A stretch of 64,000 nt of DNA, from NCBI RefSeq assembly GCF_009914755.1, contig NC_060931.1; one strand, written 5' to 3'. This DNA is from the human T2T-CHM13v2.0 reference genome, Homo sapiens. Both the position numbers and the translations under genes were made by a program. Below are positions 43,630-57,947 of this stretch, in pieces. The notes below the pieces were generated by a model. The model had not been told where the DNA came from. It made no database searches and saw nothing but the letters and a program-made list of their open reading frames with translations. The first letter of the stretch is position 1. Every line of letters starts with the position of its first letter.

Positions 43630-43965
43630 AATAGCATTTTCCGGTGCATGCACTGGGGACAATCAGGGCCATAAATTTCTGATATGAAATACATTTAAGA
43701 AATACCAATATGAGGGCAATGGAAATTTCCGGTGCATGCACTGGGGACAATCAGGGCCATAAATTTCTGATATGAAATACATTTAAGAAATACCAATATG
43801 AGGGCAATGGAAATTTCTTTGGTAATTTGCAAAACATATTAACATATTAAAGGTTCTGAAGTAACCCATTGTTACTAGTTTAACTTTCTTTAACCCAGAA
43901 TTGCCCAAACTTACTTGAGCATAAAAGTGTTTTAACACTTCTGAGAAATATCCTTTCAGATACCA
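43630..43965. mobile_element. hAT-Charlie relic (MER103C-like)
   Basis: ATTAAAGGTTCTGA..GTTTAACTTT.TTTAACCCAG.ATT.CCCAAACTTA.TTGA block. Confidence 0.45.
43638..43817. repeat. Perfect 88-bp tandem duplication
   Basis: 43638-43725 is identical to 43726-43813, followed by TTTC (43814-43817), the first 4 nt of the unit. Confidence 0.98.
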
Positions 43966-48629: not shown

Positions 48630-49868
48630 CTAAAAACATGGATACCCAAATAGAGTAAATTAAGAATCTAGAGACATTAGTTATCTGAAAACTATTCAGA
48701 AACTCTGCACAAACTTTTGATATTGGATTGATTAACTTTGATAATGACCTTATTTTTGGAGTAAAGTGAACACAAATATCAGTGTATTAGCCCATCCTAA
48801 AATATTATTTCATAAAAAATTAATTCATCATAAAATAACACTACATATCACCCTGCTTTCATTTTCTTAACTACATTATAGAATGATAGCACATTTAGAA
48901 GATGATGTCATCTTTCAATTAATAAAGATAGTTGTGCCTCTTAGAGAAAGGTAATAATTTCAAGAAGCTGGATGAGCTGCAAATCTACACAAATATTTTT
49001 AAGAACATATATCTATTTAACAATTTTGTGCTCTCTCAATTTTATTTTTGCTGTTTTTAGACATATGGATGTTTCTATTTTTGAAATTCTTTCTTGTTTT
49101 TGTTTGTGATTTCTGTTTTTTAGTCTTCCTCCACCAAAGCTGTTTAGTAATCTAGTTTTTTTCCATTTCATTATTTGATTAGTTATATTTGATTATTAAT
49201 CTATCAAAAATTACTTCTTCAGTTGTGCAACGTGGCGATCAAAATTGATTCTCAAGTAAATACCTCAGGTTCCTAGTACCAATTATTGTCTCATCTTAAT
49301 ATTTATTCCTTAGTTTATTATTTCTCCTTTATTTATATTAATTATTTATGTATTGTACAATATAACTCCTACATATATAACAGGTTATATTTTTGCATTG
49401 CCATTTCTGGTTGATTGGTCTGTCTATTCGTAGGTTAATACCAGACCATTTTATTGATTTTATTCTTACATTTCCAGATCTTCTCTTTTGGGCAATACTT
49501 TCTGATTTGAAAGGAAGTAGTGAAAAAGTTTTACAAAACAGAGAGGAGGAACATGTGTTGATCAGTCACATGGTTTGTAAAGCAAAATATTGGGGTTTGT
49601 TGTATAGTGTTTACTTATTTTAAATATTAATTTTTTCTATTCAAAGAAAATATTTAATGGTGAAAATCATGAATTTTGGATATAGATGTGGGTTCGAATT
49701 TGAACTTTGTAACTTAATGGTTTTTTAATCTCTGGTAAAATCCATTAAATTCTTTCAAGCTCCTTCCTCTCTGAATGGGATTATTAATATGAATCTCATC
49801 AGTTTAGAATGAGTCCTAAGTGAGATTACAGAGGAATAAATAAAGCACAGCTTACTTGTGATTGTAAG

Positions 49869-49881
49869 TTCCTGTCTTCTT
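49869..49881 (-). other. HERV-H polypurine tract
   Basis: Minus strand ...TTCTTATTAATAT-AAGAAGACAGGAA (consensus AAGAAGGCAGGAA), normally followed by TGTCAGG of the 3' LTR. Confidence 0.9.
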
Positions 49882-50619
49882 ATATTAATAAGAAAAATAA
49901 AACGAAATAGTGCTAAAGTGTTGGGACAGCGAAAATTTTTGGAGATGGTATGGAGAGATAATGGGCGATGTTTCTCAGGGCTGCTTCGAGCGGGATTAGG
50001 GGCGGTGTGGGAACCTAGAGTGGGAGAGATTAAGCTGAAGGAAGATTTTGTGGTAAGGGGTGATATTGTGGGGTTGTTAGAAGGAACATTTGTAATTTAG
50101 AATTATTGGTGATGGCCTGGATACGGTTTTGTATGAATTGAAAAACTAAATGGAATAAGAGAAGGAGAAAAACAGGTATAAAAGGTCTAAGAATTGGGAC
50201 GACTCAGGACATCTGATTAGAGAGTGCCTAAGGAGGTTCAGCATAGTCCTGCCAGCAAAGATTATTTATTTACTTCAAGAGTTAAGAGTGGCAGTTTGGG
50301 GATAGCACCAGGAGGTATCAGCTTTGATGACTTGGAGAAACAGTGTAAACCGGCAGTGTAAACAAGAGCAGGGCATGCATGAGTAGTTGAGAACGGTGAA
50401 TAGGAGTATGACTAGACACAAGATAGTAGGAATGACAAGTTTTTTGGGGGCACAGTCTAAGTTGATCTGGTGTCTGGAATGAGACTGGGGCCTAATAAAA
50501 AGGAGCGTCTATACAGGAGCTCAAATGGCCTGTACCTTGTAGCATTCTGAGGACAGGTCTGACTTCTGAGAAGGGTAAGTGGTAAAAGTATTGTCCAGTC
50601 CTTTTTAAGTTGGTGGCTG

Positions 50620-50790
50620 AGCTTGGTGAGGTGTGTTTTTAAAAGACCTTTAGTCCATTCTACTTTTCCTGAAGACGGAGGACCATAAAGGATATAAAGG
50701 TTTCACTGAATACTAAGAGCCTGAAAAACTGCTTGGCTGATTTGACTAATAAAGGCTGGTCTGTTATCAGACTGTATAGAGGTGGGAAGG
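50620..50790 (-). pseudogene. HERV-H integrase core remnant
   Basis: Manual translation SIQSDNRPAFISQISQAVFQALSIQ*NLYILYGPPSSGKVEWTKGLLKTHLTKL (SDNGPAF and QSSGKVER motifs, one in-frame stop). Confidence 0.85.
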
Positions 50791-51849
50791 CTAAACTGAG
50801 GAGTTATGTCTGACAGAAGGGAAGAAATGACTGCGGTGGCCTTCTCAGACCCTGTAGGAAAGGACTCTACCTATCCAGTGAAAGTGTCTACCTAGGCTAA
50901 GAGGTATTTTAGTTATCTGACTCGGGGCATGTTGAGTAAAGCTAATTTGCCAGTCCTGGGTGGGGGCAAATCCTCGAGCTTGATGTGTAGGGAAGGGAGG
51001 GGGCCTGAATAATCCCTGAGGAGTAGTAGAATAGCAGATGGAACACTGAGAAGTTATTTCCTTGAGGATAGATTTCCATGATGGAAAGGAAATGAGAGCT
51101 TCTAAGAGGCGGGCTAGTGGCTTGTACTATAGCATAGCCTGCCTTTGCTTGTGTGTGGCGATTAGGCCTGGTGGAACTGCCATCAATAAATCAAGCGTGA
51201 TCAGGGTGAGGAACAGGAAAGAAGGAAATATGGGGAAATGGGGTGAATGTCAGGTGGATCAGAGAGATACAGTCATGGGGGTCAGGTGTGGTATCAGGAA
51301 TAATGTGGGAGGCCAGATTGAAGTCCGGGCCAGGAACAATGGTAATTGTGGGACTTAACAAAGAGTGAGTACAGCTGAAGGAGCCAGGGAGCAGAAAGTA
51401 TATGCGTCAGCTATGAGGAAGAAAATAGATTTTGGAAGTTATGAGAAATGTAGAGAGTAAGTTGAGCATAGTTTGTGATTTTGAGGGCCTCTAAAAGTAT
51501 TAGGGCGGCAGCAGCCGCTGCACGCAGACATGACGGCTAGGCTAAAACAGTAAGATCCAGTTGTTTGCGCAGAAAGGCTACAGGGTGCAGTCCTGGCTCT
51601 TGTGTAAGAATTCTGACCACACTAACCATGCCTAGGAAGGAAAGGAGTTGTTGTTTTGTAAGGGATTGAGGTTTGGGAGATTAATCGGATACGATCAGCA
51701 AGGAAAGCACGTGTGTTTTTATGAGAATTATGCCGAGATAGGTAACAGATGAGGATGAAGTTTGGGCTTGACTGAAGTAATGGGGGCTGTCTGTGAAGCC
51801 TTGCGGCAGTACAGCCCAGGTAATTTGCTGAGCCTAATGGGTATCAGGG

Positions 51850-52158
51850 TCAGTCCAAGTGAAAGCGAAGAGAGGCTGGGATGACGGGTGCAAAGGAATA
51901 GTAAAGAAAGCATGTTTGAGATCCAGAACAGAATAATGGATTGTGGAGGGAGGTATTGAGGATAGGAGAGAGGATAGGGTTTGGCACCATGAGGTGGATA
52001 GGCAAAACAATTTGGTTGATAAGGCATAGATCCTGAACTAACTTGTAAGGCTTGTCTGGTTTTAGGACAGGTAAAATGGGGGAATTGTAAGGAGAGTTTA
52101 TAGGCTTTAAAAGGCCATGCTGTAGCAGGCAAGTGATAGCAGGCTTTAATCCTTTCAA
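51850..52158 (-). pseudogene. HERV-H reverse transcriptase N-terminal remnant
   Basis: [44 protein letters not shown]...VPNP, then frameshift. Confidence 0.9.
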
Positions 52159-52562
52159 AGCATGCTATGGGATGTGATATTGGCATTGAGTGGGGTAAGG
52201 GTGATTAGGTTTTAATGAGATGGTAAGGGGTGCATGATCGGTTGCCAAGGAGGGAGTAGAAGTATCTTATACTTGTGGGTTAAGGTGGGGTAATACAAGA
52301 GGAGGACGCAAAGGAGGCTTTGGATTGGGAAGAAGGGCAGCAATGAGATGTAGCTGTAATCCAGGAATAGTCAGGGAAGCAGACAATTTAGTTAAAGTGT
52401 CTCGGCCTAATAAGGGAACTGGGCAGGTGGGGATAACTAAAAGGAGTGCTTAAAAGAGTATTGTCTAAGTTGGCATGAGAGTGGGGGTTTTAAGAGGTTT
52501 AGAAGCCTGGCTATCAATACCCACAACAGTTATGGAGGCAAGGGAAACAGGCCCTTGAAAAT

Positions 52563-52600
52563 AAGGTAATGTGGAGTGAGTAGCCTCGGTATTGATTAAG
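52563..52600 (-). pseudogene. HERV-H protease active-site remnant (degenerate)
   Basis: Manual translation LINTEATHSTLP, where an active enzyme has LIDTGATHS. Confidence 0.8.
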
Positions 52601-52799
52601 AAGGGGACAGACTTACCCTCCACTGTGAGAGTTACCCGAAGCTCGGCGTCCCTGATGGTCTAGGGGGCTTCCGAGGCGATCCGACAGCATCAGTCTTCAG
52701 CCGCTAAGCCAAGAAGATCTGGGAAGGAGTCAGAGAGCCTTCGGCCAGAGTTCCAGGGGCTCTGGGAGTGGCTGCCAGGTGAGTTGGACAGTCCGATTT

Positions 52800-53036
52800 C
52801 TAGTGGTGTCCTGCACAGATGGGACTCGGCTTAGGAGGAATCCTGGGCTGCAGGCATTCCTTGGCCTGGTGGCCAGATTTCTGGCACTTGTAGCAAGCTC
52901 CTGGGGGAGGAGGTTCTGGAGGAACGCCTGGTCGCTGCGTTTCAGATGTTTGGAAGTTCTTGTGTGCTGGAGATGTGGCTGGGGTTTGTCTCACAGTGGA
53001 GGCAAGGAATTGCAACTTTTTTCTATTATTGTACAC
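52800..53036 (-). pseudogene. HERV-H gag nucleocapsid remnant
   Basis: CCHC knuckle CYKCQKSGHQAKEC at 52854-52895; the second knuckle is degenerate. Confidence 0.9.
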
Positions 53037-53977
53037 GTTGAAGGCGAGGTTAATTAAATCCTGTTGTGGGGTTTGAGGGCCAGAATTTAATTTTTGGAGT
53101 TGTATTTAATGTCGGGAGCAGACTGGGTAATAAAATGTATTTTGAGAATAAGACGGCCTTTTGACCTTTCAGGGTCTAGGGCTGTAAAGTGTCTCAGGGT
53201 TGCTGCCAAACGAGCCATGAACTGGGCTGGATTTTTCATATTTGATGAAAGAGCCTAAACGCACACTGATTTGGGAGAGGTCTGATAAGGAAAAAGGAGC
53301 ATTAACCTTGACTATGCCTTTAGCTTCAGCCACCTTTTTAAGAGTAAATTGCTGAGCAGGTGCCGGAGGGCTAGAGGTGGAACGAAACTGTAAGCCGGAC
53401 CGGGTGTGAGGAGGGGAGGTGATAAAAGGATTATAGGGTGGAGGAGTGGAGGCTGAGGAAGAATTGGGACCTAGCTCAGCCTGGCCAGGAGGGGAGAGGT
53501 AGAAAAGGAAGATTAGAAAGACTCAGCGAAGCTTGGGGTTGGGACTGAGGGGACAGGTGGGAGGGAAAGAAGGAAGATTTGGGATGAGTTACATTGGGAA
53601 CAGAGACTAGAGATGCACTGACATGTAAAAGAGTGCCTGGACATCAGGCACCTCAGACCATTTGCCCATTTTACGACAATAATTATTTAGATCTTGCAGG
53701 ATGGAAAAATTGAAAGTGCCATTTTCTGGCTATTTGGAACTACTGTCGAGTTTGTATTGGGGTCAAGTGGCATTGCAGAAGAAAATAAGACGCTTAGATT
53801 TTAGGTCAGGTGAGAGGTGAAGAGGTTTTAAGTTCTTAATAACACAGGCTAAAGGAGAAGAAGGAGGAATGGAGGGTGGATGGTTGCCCATAGTGAAGGA
53901 GGCTAGCCCAGAGAAAAGAGTAGAGACACGGAGAAGGGTTGGGGGTTCTTGCCCTCCAGAAAAGCAGAGAAGGGGTT

Positions 53978-54262
53978 GGGGCACAGAGATACGAGGTCAG
54001 GGCACGGAAATAAGGGATCGGGGTGCAGAGATATAAGAGGTTGGGGCACGGAAATAAGGGATCGGGGCACAGAGATATAAGAGGCTGGGGCACGGAAATA
54101 AGGGATCGGGGCACAGAGATATAAGAGGCTGGGGCATGGAAATAAGGGGTCGGGGCACAGAGATATAAGAGGCTGGGGCACGGAAATAAGGGATCAGGGC
54201 GCAGAGATATAAGAGGTCCGGGTGCGGAAATAAGGGATCGAGGCGCAGAGATATGAGGTTGG
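53978..54262. repeat. 44-bp tandem repeat (about 6.5 copies) in the HERV-H pre-gag leader
   Basis: GGGGCACAGAGATATAAGAGGCTGGGGCACGGAAATAAGGGATC units starting at 53978, 54020, 54064, 54108, 54152, 54196 and 54240. Confidence 0.95.
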
Positions 54263-54711
54263 AGTATTTGCCCCTCCTCTAGAAAAGCAGGACTTGCCGC
54301 TCAGGGTGAAGGAGAAGGGGTTGGGGGTTTCTTGCCCCCCAGAAAGGCGGAGAAGACACGGAGAGAAGGGGTTGGGGTACTTGCCCTTTCCCCAGAAAAG
54401 TGGGACTTGCCGCTAAGGGTGAAGGACCAAGGCAGGCATCCCTGCGTGGTCTGACACCTCTGAAACCTGGGTGAATAATCAGGGACGCATCCCTGGAATG
54501 ATTAAACACCAGGGGAAGGCTGCCTTCCCTAGTCCATGACCAGCGCCGGAGTTTTGGGTCCAGGGATAAAACGTGTCTCCTTTGTCTCTACCAGAAAATG
54601 AAAGGAATTGAAATTAAAAGAAGGGAGAGATTGACGTGTGGCGCCAAGATTGAAAGGAGAAAGAGGTTGAGGGATGGTGAGGGAGGTTGGAGAAGAGAGT
54701 AAAAAGGGGCT

Positions 54712-54720
54712 GCTTACCGG
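54712..54720 (-). other. HERV-H major splice donor
   Basis: Minus strand AATCCG|GTAAGC about 125 nt downstream of the PBS. Confidence 0.75.
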
Positions 54721-54842
54721 ATTTTAAATTGGTGAGATGTTTACTGGGCTGGTCGGTCTGAGGACCTGAGGTCGTACGTGGATCTTTCTCACGAGCAAAG
54801 AACAGGAGGACAGGGGATTGATCTCCCAAGGGAAGTCCCCTG

Positions 54843-54860
54843 ATCCGAGTCACGGCACCA
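54843..54860 (-). other. Primer binding site complementary to tRNA-His
   Basis: TGGTGCCGTGACTCGGAT, 2 nt after the LTR end. Confidence 0.95.
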
Positions 54861-54862
54861 AA

Positions 54863-55275
54863 TTTCATGCGCCTCCGTGTGAAGAGACCACCAAACAGGC
54901 TTTGTGTGAGCAATAAAAGCTTTTAATCACCTGGGTGCAGGCAGGCTGAGTCCGAAAAGAGAGTCAGTGAAGGGAGAAAGGGGTGGGGCCGTTTTACAGG
55001 ATTTGGGTAGGTAAAGGAAAATTACAGTCAAAGGGAGGGTTGTTCCCTGGCGGTCAGAGTGGGGGTCACAAGGTACTCAGTGGGGGAGCTTTTGAGCCAG
55101 GATGAGCCAGGAGAAGGAATTTCACAAAACAATGTCATCAGTTAAGGCAGGAACAGGCCATTTTCACTTCTTTTGTGGTGGAATGTCATCAGTTAAGGCA
55201 GGAACCGGCCATCTGGATGTGTACGTGCAGGTCACAGGGGATATGATGGCTTAGCTTGGGCTCAGAGGCCTGACA
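54863..55275 (-). promoter_or_regulatory. LTR7 5' LTR (413 bp), LTR7up-like layout
   Basis: TGTCAGGCCTCTGAGCCCAAGC...two GTTCCTGCCTTAACTGATGACATT repeats around CCACCACAAAAGAAG...ATTAAA...GCGCATGAAA. Confidence 0.95.
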
Positions 55276-57947
55276 GTAAGTGTTCAGTAAATGTAATTAG
55301 TATAATTATTAAAATATTCATGATTATTATTCCTTTAAAATATTCTAGAAATCTTCATGTTATCTAATCTGGAAAAGAATTTTTCTAGCTCCATTGCTAA
55401 AAAAATTCTTCAAATTCAAATTTATTTCTGTATCTCTTAATAGAAATGAGGAAACGTATTTCCTCTTCCTGTAATAGTAGTCTCAGAACACGTGACTGTC
55501 ACTTGTGTGTCTCTGTGAGTGACTGTGTGGAAAGAACTTATCTGACTCACTCACTTCTCTGTGCCTTGGCTTTGGGTATATGGCTGCAAGTCTCTGCTAA
55601 TTACTCCTATGCCACTTTCAGCACAAATATCACTTATTATGTGCTGCTTGAATATTATTTTCTTTATTTCTAAGTTTGGTCCATTCAGTCCTCTCATGGC
55701 ATGAGTTGCTTTTCTTATTTCCACATAAGTATTTGAAAACTTGTCAGAATGCTATTTTCATTAGACACTTTTCATTATTACGCTGTCATCACTGAACAAG
55801 TTTATTTCAAAGCCTTTTGAGAAAAATGACAGAAAACATAGCATTTTATTTCCTTGGCCGTTCATTAGATTAGAAATGTCAAGAAAGACTTAGATTATAC
55901 TTATTTTTATTAAAAGGAATGAGAGACTTTTCTTGAAAAAAAGAAAAAAAGAAATTTAAATTTTGAATGCTACGTCTTAGGGCTCTATGCAGTGAAACAT
56001 TTTCTCTTCATTGTTTAGAAAGACTTACATTTTATTTTAAAATTCCTGCCCGTCTTTTTCTCTTGAAGAGATAAGATACTCTAATCATTCTAGAACACCA
56101 GCTATTAATCTGAAATTAAATCTATTACGTGCCAGAAACAAATTACCCCAAAGTTAACCTAAAATATCATCAGGGTAACACCTTCAGTTACAAATTATAG
56201 TAACATCTTAGATAATAAATTTCAGCAGCTATTAAAAGAGAGATGATAATAGTACCTTTGTCTGAGGCTTCTTATGATAATTGACTTTAAATATGTAGAG
56301 CATCTAATACTGCATGTGAGGCTGAATTCTATGAAATTACTAATACTGAAGCATTTTTGGCCTACAGAAGGAACGGTTTCATGTGGTTCAACCGAAGTGT
56401 TGCTCGTTAATTTTGAGTTTCCCATTCACCACTGCACTGACCTTTAGCCAGGACAGTACTTACTAATTATAATTTAAAGGTCGCATGGATAGAGAGCAAG
56501 GCAGACTTGTTACGACAAACCTGTGTCTTGTCTATCTTGGTATGGTGGTGCCTCAGTTAGCACAGGGCTTTCACTCTCTTACTATGGCCAGCTTCACAGT
56601 CTCTGTGACCCTTCAACCTGTCCCATGACTTCTGCTTACCCGTGGCCATGGTGTCTACTGATGGCATCACTATGCTCACTGCCTTCACCCATATGATTCT
56701 CATATGTGTAATTTACTAGCCAGTATCCAGCAAGGCCTGCTGTGTATGGGAGCTGGTGCCATAGAAAGTGTGGATGAGGTTATGTGTAGGTATCTCTGCT
56801 GGTGGTGGGTTGATGATAACCATATTTGACGCCCTTAAATTTCTAAAATTAGGAGTCATTGTATTCATTCTAGATTGAGGAGGATAGCATTTAAATGGGG
56901 CTTAAGTATGCCTTGTAAGTATGTAAAAAGATATAAAATTACCATGCATACTGTCTTTCAATAACATAACAAGACTGTAGTTTAGTGAGCTCAAGGTGAC
57001 AAAATAGCCATTATTTTCTTACTGTGAGAGTCATTTTGTTTATTGTTTGCATGAGTGACAATTTTTCCAATGAAACTTTCTTGGTTAATAGACCCTTTCT
57101 TATACATAAATATGAAATAAGAGGGTGATAGAAATCAGATATTATATCTAGTTTTTATGACTAGCAGATTACACAGAATAAAAACATCACAATGACACAA
57201 AACATAATCTTACACATTAGACAAAGGCATACAACTTTAAAAAATATTGCAATCAAAAAGATGTAATTAAATTACCCTGATTCATTGAAACTTTAGCTTT
57301 TAAAAGGTTCATTTTTGTGGGTATAAATAAATTTTGTTATCTTAATTTTATACAAGTTACAATTATATTATTGTTAATGACAGATACCAAATTTAATAAT
57401 GTCACCTTGTTTTATGTTTTATAAAATTTGCTTCATTTTTCCACCTAAGCAGATATGCTGTCAAAATGTGGTGTTACCTGAAATTTTAAAATGCATCTCT
57501 TTTCCTTGTGTAATTTTATAATAAAATAGTTAAGAATGAAGAATTATAAAAAAGTTAAGAATTTTATTTTGAAGACTGATATTCTAAGTTGCATATAGCA
57601 AAGAAGTTACGAACTTTTATAGTCAAGGACCTCATAACACATGATAGATGCTAATTTTAATTAAATTTATTATTTCAACTTTGAAAAATGGGGTAGGAGG
57701 AGAGTATGAATCAGAGGATGAAGTAACTCACAATTTAGGCTATAGGGGCCACATTTTTCTAACTTAATATTCCATGATTATTTCCAAAGGTTACTTAAAT
57801 CCAATATATGACTCAGAGCTTCAGACTTAACGTCATACATTTTCACATAGGTTTTAATTTGTGGAGAAAGGACATATTCTGATATTATTATAGAAAAGCC
57901 ATTGGATTCTATGGTGTGATAATAAGAGATTTCAGGTCTGGGTCTTC

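What the first reader, a model, noticed from the sequence alone, without database searches (positions are those of the whole stretch)
49864..55280. One-LTR HERV-H provirus: 3' LTR missing to the base, yet TSD and host target intact
Seen: on the minus strand the internal region runs to the last base of the PPT (AAGAAGACAGGAA, 49869) and passes straight into host DNA, with no trace of the TGTCAGG... 3' LTR. GTAAG flanks both ends (49864-49868, 55276-55280), and the interrupted MIR tail reads through without loss when the element is removed. Established: retroviral integration yields two LTRs; LTR-LTR recombination leaves a solo LTR, not LTR plus internal region; random deletions normally remove flank or leave LTR stubs. 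Inference: this may be an integration of an atypical substrate, either a 1-LTR circle opened at the PPT/U3 junction or a linear cDNA that failed strand-displacement synthesis. The PPT end (..CAGGAA) resembles this family's non-canonical U5 end (..CATGAAA). Alternatives are an exact LTR-length deletion through 2-nt AA microhomology, or an assembly/editing artefact.
Basis: partly seen in the sequence, partly recalled or inferred. Interest (0 to 1): 0.85.

Follow-up and report, generated by a model that had tools for sequence, protein, structure and literature searches.

The report
One-LTR HERV-H provirus, made at integration
This human endogenous retrovirus copy has only its left terminal repeat yet sits in an undamaged, duplicated target site, and it is one of about eleven such copies in the genome, which points to a rare alternative way this virus family inserted its DNA.

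Summary
On the minus strand a 413-nt LTR7 (55275-54863), a primer-binding site and a 4,994-nt internal region end at the last base of the polypurine tract (PPT, 49869). CTTAC flanks both ends, and no second LTR7 lies anywhere in the 64-kb window. Of 823 sites carrying the HERV-H PPT 16-mer, 11 run straight from the PPT into host DNA. All 11 have a perfect 5-bp direct repeat matching the 5-mer before their 5' LTR. Nine end at the CA inside the PPT, 4 nt upstream of this copy's end. One ends at a second GACA 10 nt further on. Only this window ends at ..CAGGAA. For two of the loci the rebuilt empty site is collinear with other Alu or L1 copies. Recurrent, base-exact ends with family-typical duplications fit integrase joining an aberrant right end at the PPT/U3 junction, and do not fit random deletion. 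For this locus I give that reading about 0.78. An exact LTR-length deletion through AA microhomology keeps about 0.12, because its end register is unique and ape orthologues could not be examined. Nine literature searches found no description of this class.

The parts
55276..55280 (-). Upstream copy of the 5-bp target-site duplication (CTTAC on the minus strand, GTAAG on the plus strand)
   Evidence: Read directly; identical to 49864-49868.
54863..55275 (-). 5' LTR7, 413 nt, starts TGTCAGG and ends ..CATGAAA; overlaps the RefSeq enhancer feature 54679-55450 given by the hub
   Evidence: The same start motif follows the PPT in the great majority of the sites read. Seven normal two-LTR copies end ..TGAAA.
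54843..54862 (-). TT dinucleotide plus 18-nt primer-binding site (TGGTGCCGTGACTCGGAT)
   Evidence: The same site, allowing CpG decay, recurs after U5 in the genome. That it matches tRNA-His is recalled, not tested.
49869..54862 (-). HERV-H internal region, 4,994 nt, degraded (no long reading frames); includes a 44-nt-period tandem array at 53938-54289
   Evidence: 24 stop-to-stop frames of 70 aa or more, longest 158 aa; 12 were sent to Pfam and 1 of those 12 hit a family. Tandem array: family D1.
52854..52898 (-). Remnant of a Gag nucleocapsid zinc knuckle
   Evidence: Pfam zf-CCHC, E 5.1e-06, residues 70-84 of the frame 53105-52803; nucleotide coordinates are my arithmetic.
49869..49881 (-). 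Polypurine tract AAGAAGACAGGAA, the right end of the element. The CA at 49874-49873 is where nine other one-LTR copies end
   Evidence: genome scan.
49864..49868 (-). Downstream copy of the 5-bp target-site duplication (CTTAC), directly abutting the PPT

Best explanation
The element is a HERV-H provirus that never had a 3' LTR in the chromosome. Shown: it consists of a 5' LTR7, a primer-binding site and an internal region up to the last PPT base, bounded by a perfect 5-bp duplication. At least ten other HERV-H copies have the same architecture. Inferred: integrase joined two ends in one concerted reaction, which is why the duplication has the family's 5-bp length. The left end was the normal U3 terminus (TG..). 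The right end was an aberrant terminus at the PPT/U3 junction. That junction reads GACA-GGAA-TGTC, that is CA, four bases, TG with inverted GACA/TGTC arms, the geometry of an LTR-LTR circle junction. By analogy with gammaretroviruses (recalled), plus-strand priming probably starts two bases before the TG. A plus strand stalled at that nick, a 1-LTR circle, or a full linear DNA cut at this junction would each offer a 3' end ..GACAGG, which is CA plus two bases, the canonical processing substrate. Processing there gives the nine copies ending ..GACA. In this window the joined 3'-OH was four bases further on (..GGAA), exactly opposite the normal U3 cut. It ends in AA, as the family's natural U5 end does (..TGAAA). 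Which DNA form supplied the end cannot be told from the sequence. Consequences, also inferred: the copy has no LTR polyadenylation signal at its 3' end and cannot collapse to a solo LTR.
For: (1) Anatomy and 5 of 5 duplication at this locus, with no LTR7 remnant in 64 kb.
(2) Recurrence. Of 823 sites with the PPT 16-mer, control 21, 11 in HERV-H context continue into non-LTR DNA. Two more are Alu insertions at the PPT.
(3) The 5' LTR start was located for all 11. The 5-mer before it equals the 5-mer after the right end in all 11. Nine are in the CA register: GTAAC, GTTGC, GTGTT, GTAAT, GGAAC, TGGAC, GTCAG, CTGAT, ATAGC. One follows a second GACA 10 nt on (GAGGG). This window has CTTAC.
(4) Target intact where testable: the rebuilt empty site of the contig 9 locus is collinear across the junction with 10 of 10 Alu hits in the window, and that of the contig 16 locus with 2 L1 copies.
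(5) Normal two-LTR copies end ..TGAAA followed by the duplication: 7 evaluated, with 5 of 5 in 3, 4 of 5 in 1, 3 of 5 in 1 and none in 2. So 5 bp is the family's length and AA is its natural right terminus.
(6) Precedents. HTLV-1 proviruses without a 5' LTR carry the 6-bp repeat next to internal sequence and are read as made before integration (PMC6950816, section 8, passage read). HIV-1 integrase cleaves the palindromic 2-LTR junction internally (PMC1905944, abstract).
Against: This window is the only one of the 11 whose end lies at ..CAGGAA, so recurrence supports the class more directly than it supports this register. The junction has a 2-nt AA overlap with the expected U5 end, so an exact LTR-length deletion would leave the same sequence. 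No orthologue, second haplotype or read data could be examined. The MIR read-through at this locus was not verified. The scan sees only copies with an exact 16-mer and ends lying between the CA and LTR position 5. It has about 94% nominal sensitivity from the two complementary patterns. A control window upstream of the PPT was inconclusive, so the background rate of 3' truncations elsewhere in the element was not measured. The position of the plus-strand priming cut and the substrate preferences of HERV-H integrase are inferred, not measured.
Confidence: 0.78

Rival explanations
1. Post-integration deletion. A normal two-LTR provirus lost exactly its 3' LTR by end joining or replication slippage between the AA that ends the PPT and the AA that ends U5.
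For: The junction is compatible with a 2-nt AA overlap. This locus is the only one in its register among the 11. One class member (contig 1, 3.69 Mb) shows that large internal deletions do occur in these elements.
Against: Both breakpoints would have to fall on the LTR boundaries to the base while sparing the duplication. A 2-nt overlap gives no targeting. Ten other loci show base-exact loss with no consistent overlap, for example CA|TGGAC, CA|CTGAT and CA|ATAGC. So a boundary-specific process exists in this family and need not be invoked twice. No LTR stub and no flank loss is seen.
Confidence: 0.12
2. One-ended integration. Integrase joined only the U3 end, and a broken or incomplete right end was attached to the other side of the target by host end joining, helped by short overlaps.
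For: In the CA-end loci the first base of the duplication is G in 6 of 9, the same as the next PPT base (binomial P 0.003-0.01). One locus has a 4-nt overlap (GGAAC). In this window the host base before the duplication equals the last PPT base.
Against: Host-mediated joining gives deletions, duplications and rearrangements of variable size, as described for aberrant HIV integrations (PMC5041404, abstract as shown in the search listing). Here all 11 loci have exactly 5 bp. The viral end is the same nucleotide in 9 of 11.
Confidence: 0.05
3. Assembly or editing artefact that dropped the 3' LTR.
For: None from the sequence.
Against: A collapse would not recreate a perfect duplication abutting the PPT. 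The same architecture recurs at ten other places on eight other contigs.
Confidence: 0.01

Closest known systems
HTLV-1 defective proviruses lacking the 5' LTR (made before integration)
   Same: One LTR is missing, the family-length short repeat abuts internal viral sequence, and the reading is that integrase used an internal sequence as one end (PMC6950816, section 8, passage read; the primary paper was not seen).
   Different: There the 5' LTR is missing and the internal end lies at varied places in pol or env in somatic tumour clones. Here the 3' LTR is missing, the end is the same nucleotide of the PPT in 9 of 11 germline-fixed copies, and a sequence reason (CA-4 nt-TG with GACA/TGTC arms) can be named.
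Integrase cleavage of the palindromic LTR-LTR junction of 2-LTR circles
   Same: The CA-four bases-TG geometry is cut internally by integrase to give integration-competent ends (PMC1905944, abstract; related titles in the listing).
   Different: That work concerns the true U5-U3 junction of HIV-1 in vitro. Here the proposed site is the PPT-U3 junction of HERV-H, the product keeps one LTR, and the activity is inferred from genomic fossils only.
Solo LTR from LTR-LTR recombination
   Same: A provirus-derived locus with a single LTR and an intact duplication.
   Different: A solo LTR has no internal region. This copy keeps all 4,994 nt of it, so homologous recombination cannot be the route.
HERV-K(HML-2) truncated provirus at 6p25.2
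   Same: A provirus without a 3' LTR still flanked by a duplication. The authors remark that keeping the duplication after a 3' LTR deletion is unusual (PMC5488345, discussion passages read).
   Different: It is a single locus with a 111-bp flanking duplication of uncertain origin, not the family's normal length, and no defined viral end motif.
Aberrant HIV/RSV integrations with one normal and one host-joined end
   Same: One viral end is abnormal.
   Different: Those come with variable host deletions, duplications and inversions (PMC5041404, abstract in the listing; the RSV work is recalled only). Here the duplication is exact at all 11 loci.

Membership tests
HERV-H (LTR7 / HERVH-int) | LTR7 that starts TGTCAGG and ends ..TGAAA | tested here: met
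   The same start follows the PPT in the sites read, and the same end is seen in 7 normal copies. The names LTR7 and HERV-H come from the finding and my recall; no repeat library was available.
HERV-H (LTR7 / HERVH-int) | Primer-binding site for tRNA-His two bases after U5 | tested here: inconclusive
   An 18-nt site is present at 54860-54843 and recurs after U5 genome-wide. Its match to tRNA-His is recalled, not tested.
HERV-H (LTR7 / HERVH-int) | Family PPT motif at the 3' end of the internal region | tested here: met
   The 17-mer has 804 genomic sites against 4 in the control; the 16-mer has 823 against 21.
HERV-H (LTR7 / HERVH-int) | Retroviral coding remnants between the LTR and the PPT | tested here: met
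   zf-CCHC in 1 of 12 frames sent to Pfam. No pol or env domain was detected in those 12 frames, as expected for a degraded, deleted copy.
Canonical two-LTR provirus | A 3' LTR between the PPT and the downstream duplication | tested here: not met
   The PPT abuts the duplication; no second LTR7 in the window.
Solo LTR | An LTR alone between the two duplication copies | tested here: not met
   4,994 nt of internal region are present.
One-LTR provirus formed at integration | A duplication of the family's length directly abutting the internal end | tested here: met
   CTTAC on both sides, 5 of 5. A 5-bp duplication is seen at 4/5 or better in 4 of 7 normal copies.
One-LTR provirus formed at integration | The same internal end used at independent loci | tested here: inconclusive
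   Met for the class: 9 loci end at the PPT CA and 1 at a nearby GACA. This window's own register (..GGAA) is unique among 823 sites.
One-LTR provirus formed at integration | Host target otherwise intact | tested here: inconclusive
   Shown for the contig 9 and contig 16 members. At this locus only the duplication speaks for it; the MIR check failed for lack of a reference.
One-LTR provirus formed at integration | All orthologous carriers share the one-LTR state | not testable with these tools
   No primate genome or second human haplotype is held.
Post-integration deletion product | Breakpoints unrelated to element boundaries, with LTR stub or flank loss | tested here: not met
   Both breakpoints sit on the LTR boundaries and the flank is kept.

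The most novel reading that the evidence does not exclude
HERV-H integrase used the PPT/U3 junction as a second attachment site. The junction (GACA, four bases, TGTC) mimics an LTR-LTR circle junction. It offers a canonical CA two bases before the presumed plus-strand start, whereas the family's true U5 end is the non-canonical ..AA. About 1 in 75 fixed HERV-H copies (11 of about 800 scanned) would then be fossils of integration from 1-LTR circles or from reverse-transcription intermediates that never completed PPT strand displacement. A mirror case that begins at the primer-binding site with only a 3' LTR (contig 6, 124.03 Mb) suggests the other nick of the same intermediate can also serve. 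The rule would predict one-LTR copies in any retroelement with a CA placed this way, and none in families without it.
Probability: 0.45. Interest if true: 0.85.

Novelty: new variant of a known kind. Interest (0 to 1): 0.72.

Why it matters
Textbook integration gives two LTRs, and the only recognised one-LTR outcome in genomes is the solo LTR. A recurrent class of LTR-plus-internal proviruses with exact duplications is direct genomic evidence that a retroviral integrase accepted an internal pseudo-end in the germ line, at a measurable rate and at a defined nucleotide. This bears on long-running questions: whether circular or incompletely displaced reverse-transcription products can ever integrate, and how strict the CA rule is for a family whose own U5 end breaks it. 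The question becomes testable by comparative genomics alone. In practice such copies cannot be removed by LTR-LTR recombination and lack a 3' LTR polyadenylation signal. Their LTR7-driven transcripts, if any, must run into host DNA, here antisense in a CNTNAP2 intron with an annotated enhancer over the LTR. Repeat annotation pipelines would file them as ordinary truncations.

Tried and rejected
(1) MIR read-through at this locus. The empty site was rebuilt in a script from the host flanks and searched against the rest of the window and all held loci with short words. No significant hit spanned the junction; the best was E 0.15. This is not evidence either way.
(2) Control window just upstream of the PPT. 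It gave 86 hits against 45 in the reversed control. About 38 are HERV-H with point changes or a 4-nt deletion, and the rest cannot be told from chance because no upstream context is printed. Inconclusive.
(3) A pattern joining the expected duplication to the LTR start for the contig 19 locus returned 0 hits. The 5' LTR was later found by fetching and showed why: the flank is GAGGG, not CGACT.
(4) Trailing N in a pattern is trimmed, so flanks had to be fetched or a final degenerate base used.
(5) Continuations first taken for candidates and rejected: GAGGCCTCGAC.. and TAGGCCTCGAC.. are an internal second PPT copy of a HERV-H subtype, and two loci are Alu insertions at the PPT.
(6) Reading the contig 5 (22.21 Mb) junction as ..GGAA|CTACA gives no duplication; the CA register does.
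(7) Two of nine normal-control 5' windows missed the LTR start and were dropped (L145, L147).
(9) Nine literature searches and passages of six papers found no description of one-LTR HERV-H copies with duplications. Subscription-only papers, including the early RTVL-H literature, are not in the library, and no supplements were opened.
Full report
**What is in the window**

On the minus strand the host sequence ..GAACA CTTAC (55280-55276) is followed by TGTCAGG.., the start of an LTR7 at 55275. The LTR is 413 nt and ends ..GCATGAAA at 54863. Then come TT and an 18-nt primer-binding site (54860-54843).

The internal region of 4,994 nt is degraded. There are 24 stop-to-stop frames of 70 aa or more, the longest 158 aa. 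Of the 12 frames sent to Pfam, 1 matched a family, a Gag-type zinc knuckle (E 5.1e-06).

The element ends ..ATATAAGAAGACAGGAA at 49869 and is followed at once by CTTAC (49868-49864) and unrelated DNA. The 5' LTR has no second copy or fragment anywhere in the 64 kb; the only other hits are chance matches of 12-30 nt. The one unverified detail is the MIR read-through.

The window's own genome could be searched by pattern.

- The PPT 17-mer ending ..CAGGAA occurs 804 times against 4 in the reversed control. The 16-mer ending at the internal CA occurs 823 times against 21.
- *17-mer followed by a base other than T:* 39 sites, all read. Thirty are LTR7 with a changed first base or two, 1 has a 1-nt insertion, 1 is an internal second PPT copy and 5 are chance matches outside HERV-H. 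Two run into host DNA: this window and G000:C5:22207778.
- *17-mer followed by T and then not G:* 36 sites, all read. Twenty-three are LTR7 variants, 12 are the internal second PPT copy, 1 is a small duplication, and none runs into host DNA.
- *PPT cut after its CA (next base not G):* 31 sites, all read. Twenty have the LTR after a point-mutated PPT, 7 are chance matches, and 4 are HERV-H ends running into host DNA.
- *Two complementary patterns asking only that LTR position 4 or 5 be wrong:* 38 and 12 sites. These re-found the cases above and added five more, read. They also showed 2 Alu insertions at the PPT.

In all, 11 HERV-H 3' ends pass from the PPT into non-LTR DNA.

**Duplications**

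I located the 5' LTR start of all 11 and compared the 5-mer before it with the 5-mer after the right end.

| Locus in G000 | Right end and following 5-mer | 5-mer before the 5' LTR |
|---|---|---|
| C1:3.69 Mb | CA\|GTAAC | GTAAC |
| C3:57.35 Mb | CA\|GTTGC | GTTGC |
| C4:155.14 Mb | CA\|GTGTT | GTGTT |
| C4:159.45 Mb | CA\|GTAAT | GTAAT |
| C5:22.21 Mb | CA\|GGAAC | GGAAC |
| C5:96.67 Mb | CA\|TGGAC | TGGAC |
| C9:118.97 Mb | CA\|GTCAG | GTCAG |
| C16:53.64 Mb | CA\|CTGAT | CTGAT |
| C23:112.50 Mb | CA\|ATAGC | ATAGC |
| C19:30.96 Mb | second ..TTGACA 10 nt on \|GAGGG | GAGGG |
| this window | ..GGAA\|CTTAC | CTTAC |

Nine loci match 5 of 5 in the register of the CA inside the PPT. C19:30.96 Mb does not match in that register (CGACT against GAGGG), but GAGGG follows a second ..TTGACA 10 nt downstream. 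I count it as a probable variant. This window matches in the ..GGAA register.

By my arithmetic from those coordinates, the copies span about 4.1 to 6.5 kb from LTR start to right end, most of them 5.3-5.8 kb. They lie on nine contigs with unrelated flanks, so they are independent insertions.

For two loci the rebuilt empty site could be checked against other copies of the repeat they landed in. The contig 9 target is collinear across the junction with 10 of 10 Alu hits in the window. The contig 16 target is collinear with 2 L1 copies.

**Normal copies as controls**

I read both junctions of seven ordinary two-LTR proviruses. All end ..TGAAA. The duplication after that end is 5 of 5 in 3 copies, 4 of 5 in 1, 3 of 5 in 1 and absent in 2. 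Two further controls were dropped because the fetched stretch missed the LTR start. So the family's duplication is 5 bp, and its natural right terminus is AA, not the canonical CA.

**Interpretation**

Random deletion cannot put one breakpoint on the same nucleotide nine times and the other on the LTR/host boundary every time, with overlaps as weak as none (CA|TGGAC, CA|CTGAT, CA|ATAGC). An exact duplication of the family's length at both ends is the signature of concerted integrase joining.

The sequence offers a reason. The PPT/U3 junction reads GACA-GGAA-TGTC. GACA is the perfect inverted repeat of the U3 start, and CA-four bases-TG is the geometry of an LTR-LTR circle junction, which HIV-1 integrase is reported to cleave internally (PMC1905944, abstract).

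By analogy with gammaretroviruses (my recall), the plus strand starts two bases before the TG. An upstream plus strand stalled at that nick would then end ..GACAGG, which is CA plus two bases. Completing the LTRs requires displacement synthesis through the PPT (PMC13082151, abstract start in the listing). Failure of that step, a 1-LTR circle, or internal cutting of full linear DNA would all expose this end. The fossils do not tell these apart.

**Where this locus sits in the class**

This copy keeps the four bases GGAA that the nine lack. Its joined 3'-OH lies exactly opposite the normal U3 cut, at the AA|TG boundary, and ends in AA like the natural U5 end. I read it as a rarer register of the same event.

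The rival is a later deletion of exactly one LTR through the AA overlap. Its prior is very low, since both breakpoints must be exact. A boundary-specific route is now shown to exist in this family at roughly 1% of copies. That is why I put 0.78 on integration-time origin and 0.12 on deletion. The rival cannot be dismissed without orthologues.

One-ended integration with host end joining (0.05) has a hint in its favour. The first duplicated base is G in 6 of 9 CA-end loci, the same as the next PPT base (P 0.003-0.01). But it does not predict an exact 5 bp at all 11 loci. An artefact is very unlikely (0.01).

**What is known**

Nine full-text searches found no account of one-LTR HERV-H copies with duplications. 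The HERV classification paper (PMC4724089, passages) and the HERV structural-variation paper (PMC6298018, term search) do not mention them.

The nearest precedents are these:

- HTLV-1 proviruses without a 5' LTR whose 6-bp repeat abuts pol or env, read as integrase recognising an internal sequence (PMC6950816, section 8).
- A single HML-2 provirus without a 3' LTR flanked by a 111-bp duplication that puzzled its authors (PMC5488345, discussion).

The early RTVL-H papers are not in the library and no supplements were opened, so a brief earlier mention cannot be ruled out. I rate the finding a new variant of a known kind: defective proviruses formed at integration, but here recurrent, germline-fixed and tied to a defined pseudo-attachment site.

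**Limits**

- The scan needs an exact 16-mer and detects ends only from the CA to LTR position 5.
- The background of truncations elsewhere was not measured (one search was inconclusive).
- Names of repeat families (LTR7, MIR, Alu, L1) rest on the finding's text and my recall, because no repeat library was on hand.

Noticed in passing
G000:C6:124028458-124034367 (locus L148 for the 3' end): Mirror case. A HERV-H copy whose primer-binding site is preceded by host DNA ..GGGAC then TGT, not by U5 (1 of the first 100 of 133 listed sites). Its 3' LTR ends ..CATGAAA followed by GGGAC. So this is a provirus with only a 3' LTR, a 5 of 5 duplication and a left end starting TG within 3 nt of the primer-binding site.
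   Followed up: partly
G000:C19:30961562-30965659 (loci L112, L149): A one-LTR copy of about 4.1 kb whose right end is not the PPT CA but a second ..TTGACA 10 nt further on, followed by GAGGG, the 5-mer before its 5' LTR. The extra 10 nt resemble the sequence after the internal second PPT copy.
   Followed up: partly
Nine CA-end loci: The first base of the duplication is G in 6 of 9 and GT in 5 of 9. G is also the PPT base that would follow the CA (binomial P 0.003-0.01). This is unexplained. It may reflect flap pairing during gap repair or a target preference of this abnormal complex.
   Followed up: partly
e.g. L056, L068, L073 (G000:C3:58635089, C11:77487768, C14:14902710): A HERV-H subtype carries a second copy of the PPT motif about 530-545 nt upstream of the true one, continuing TAGGCCTCGACTTAC.. 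instead of the LTR. It accounts for 12 of the 36 sites.
   Followed up: no
G000:C5:98943776 and G000:C11:70229619 (L125, L128): Alu elements inserted within the last bases of the HERV-H PPT, at two independent loci.
   Followed up: no
G000:C1:3693961-3700504 (L150): In this one-LTR copy the 5' LTR is itself cut down to about 32 nt by a later deletion reaching about 1.6 kb into the internal region, yet both duplication copies survive.
   Followed up: partly
Normal two-LTR controls, G000:C1:76.73 Mb and C11:127.80 Mb: Two of seven ordinary proviruses have unrelated 5-mers at their two ends, as expected if they arose by recombination between different proviruses or suffered flank changes.
   Followed up: no
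window 53938-54289: A tandem array with a 44-nt period (8 overlapping register copies of a 132-nt unit, 61-92% identity to the reference copy) inside the internal region near its 5' end (family D1).
   Followed up: no
window 43630-43805: An 88-nt tandem duplication, two copies 97% identical, in host DNA about 6 kb from the element (family D4).
   Followed up: no
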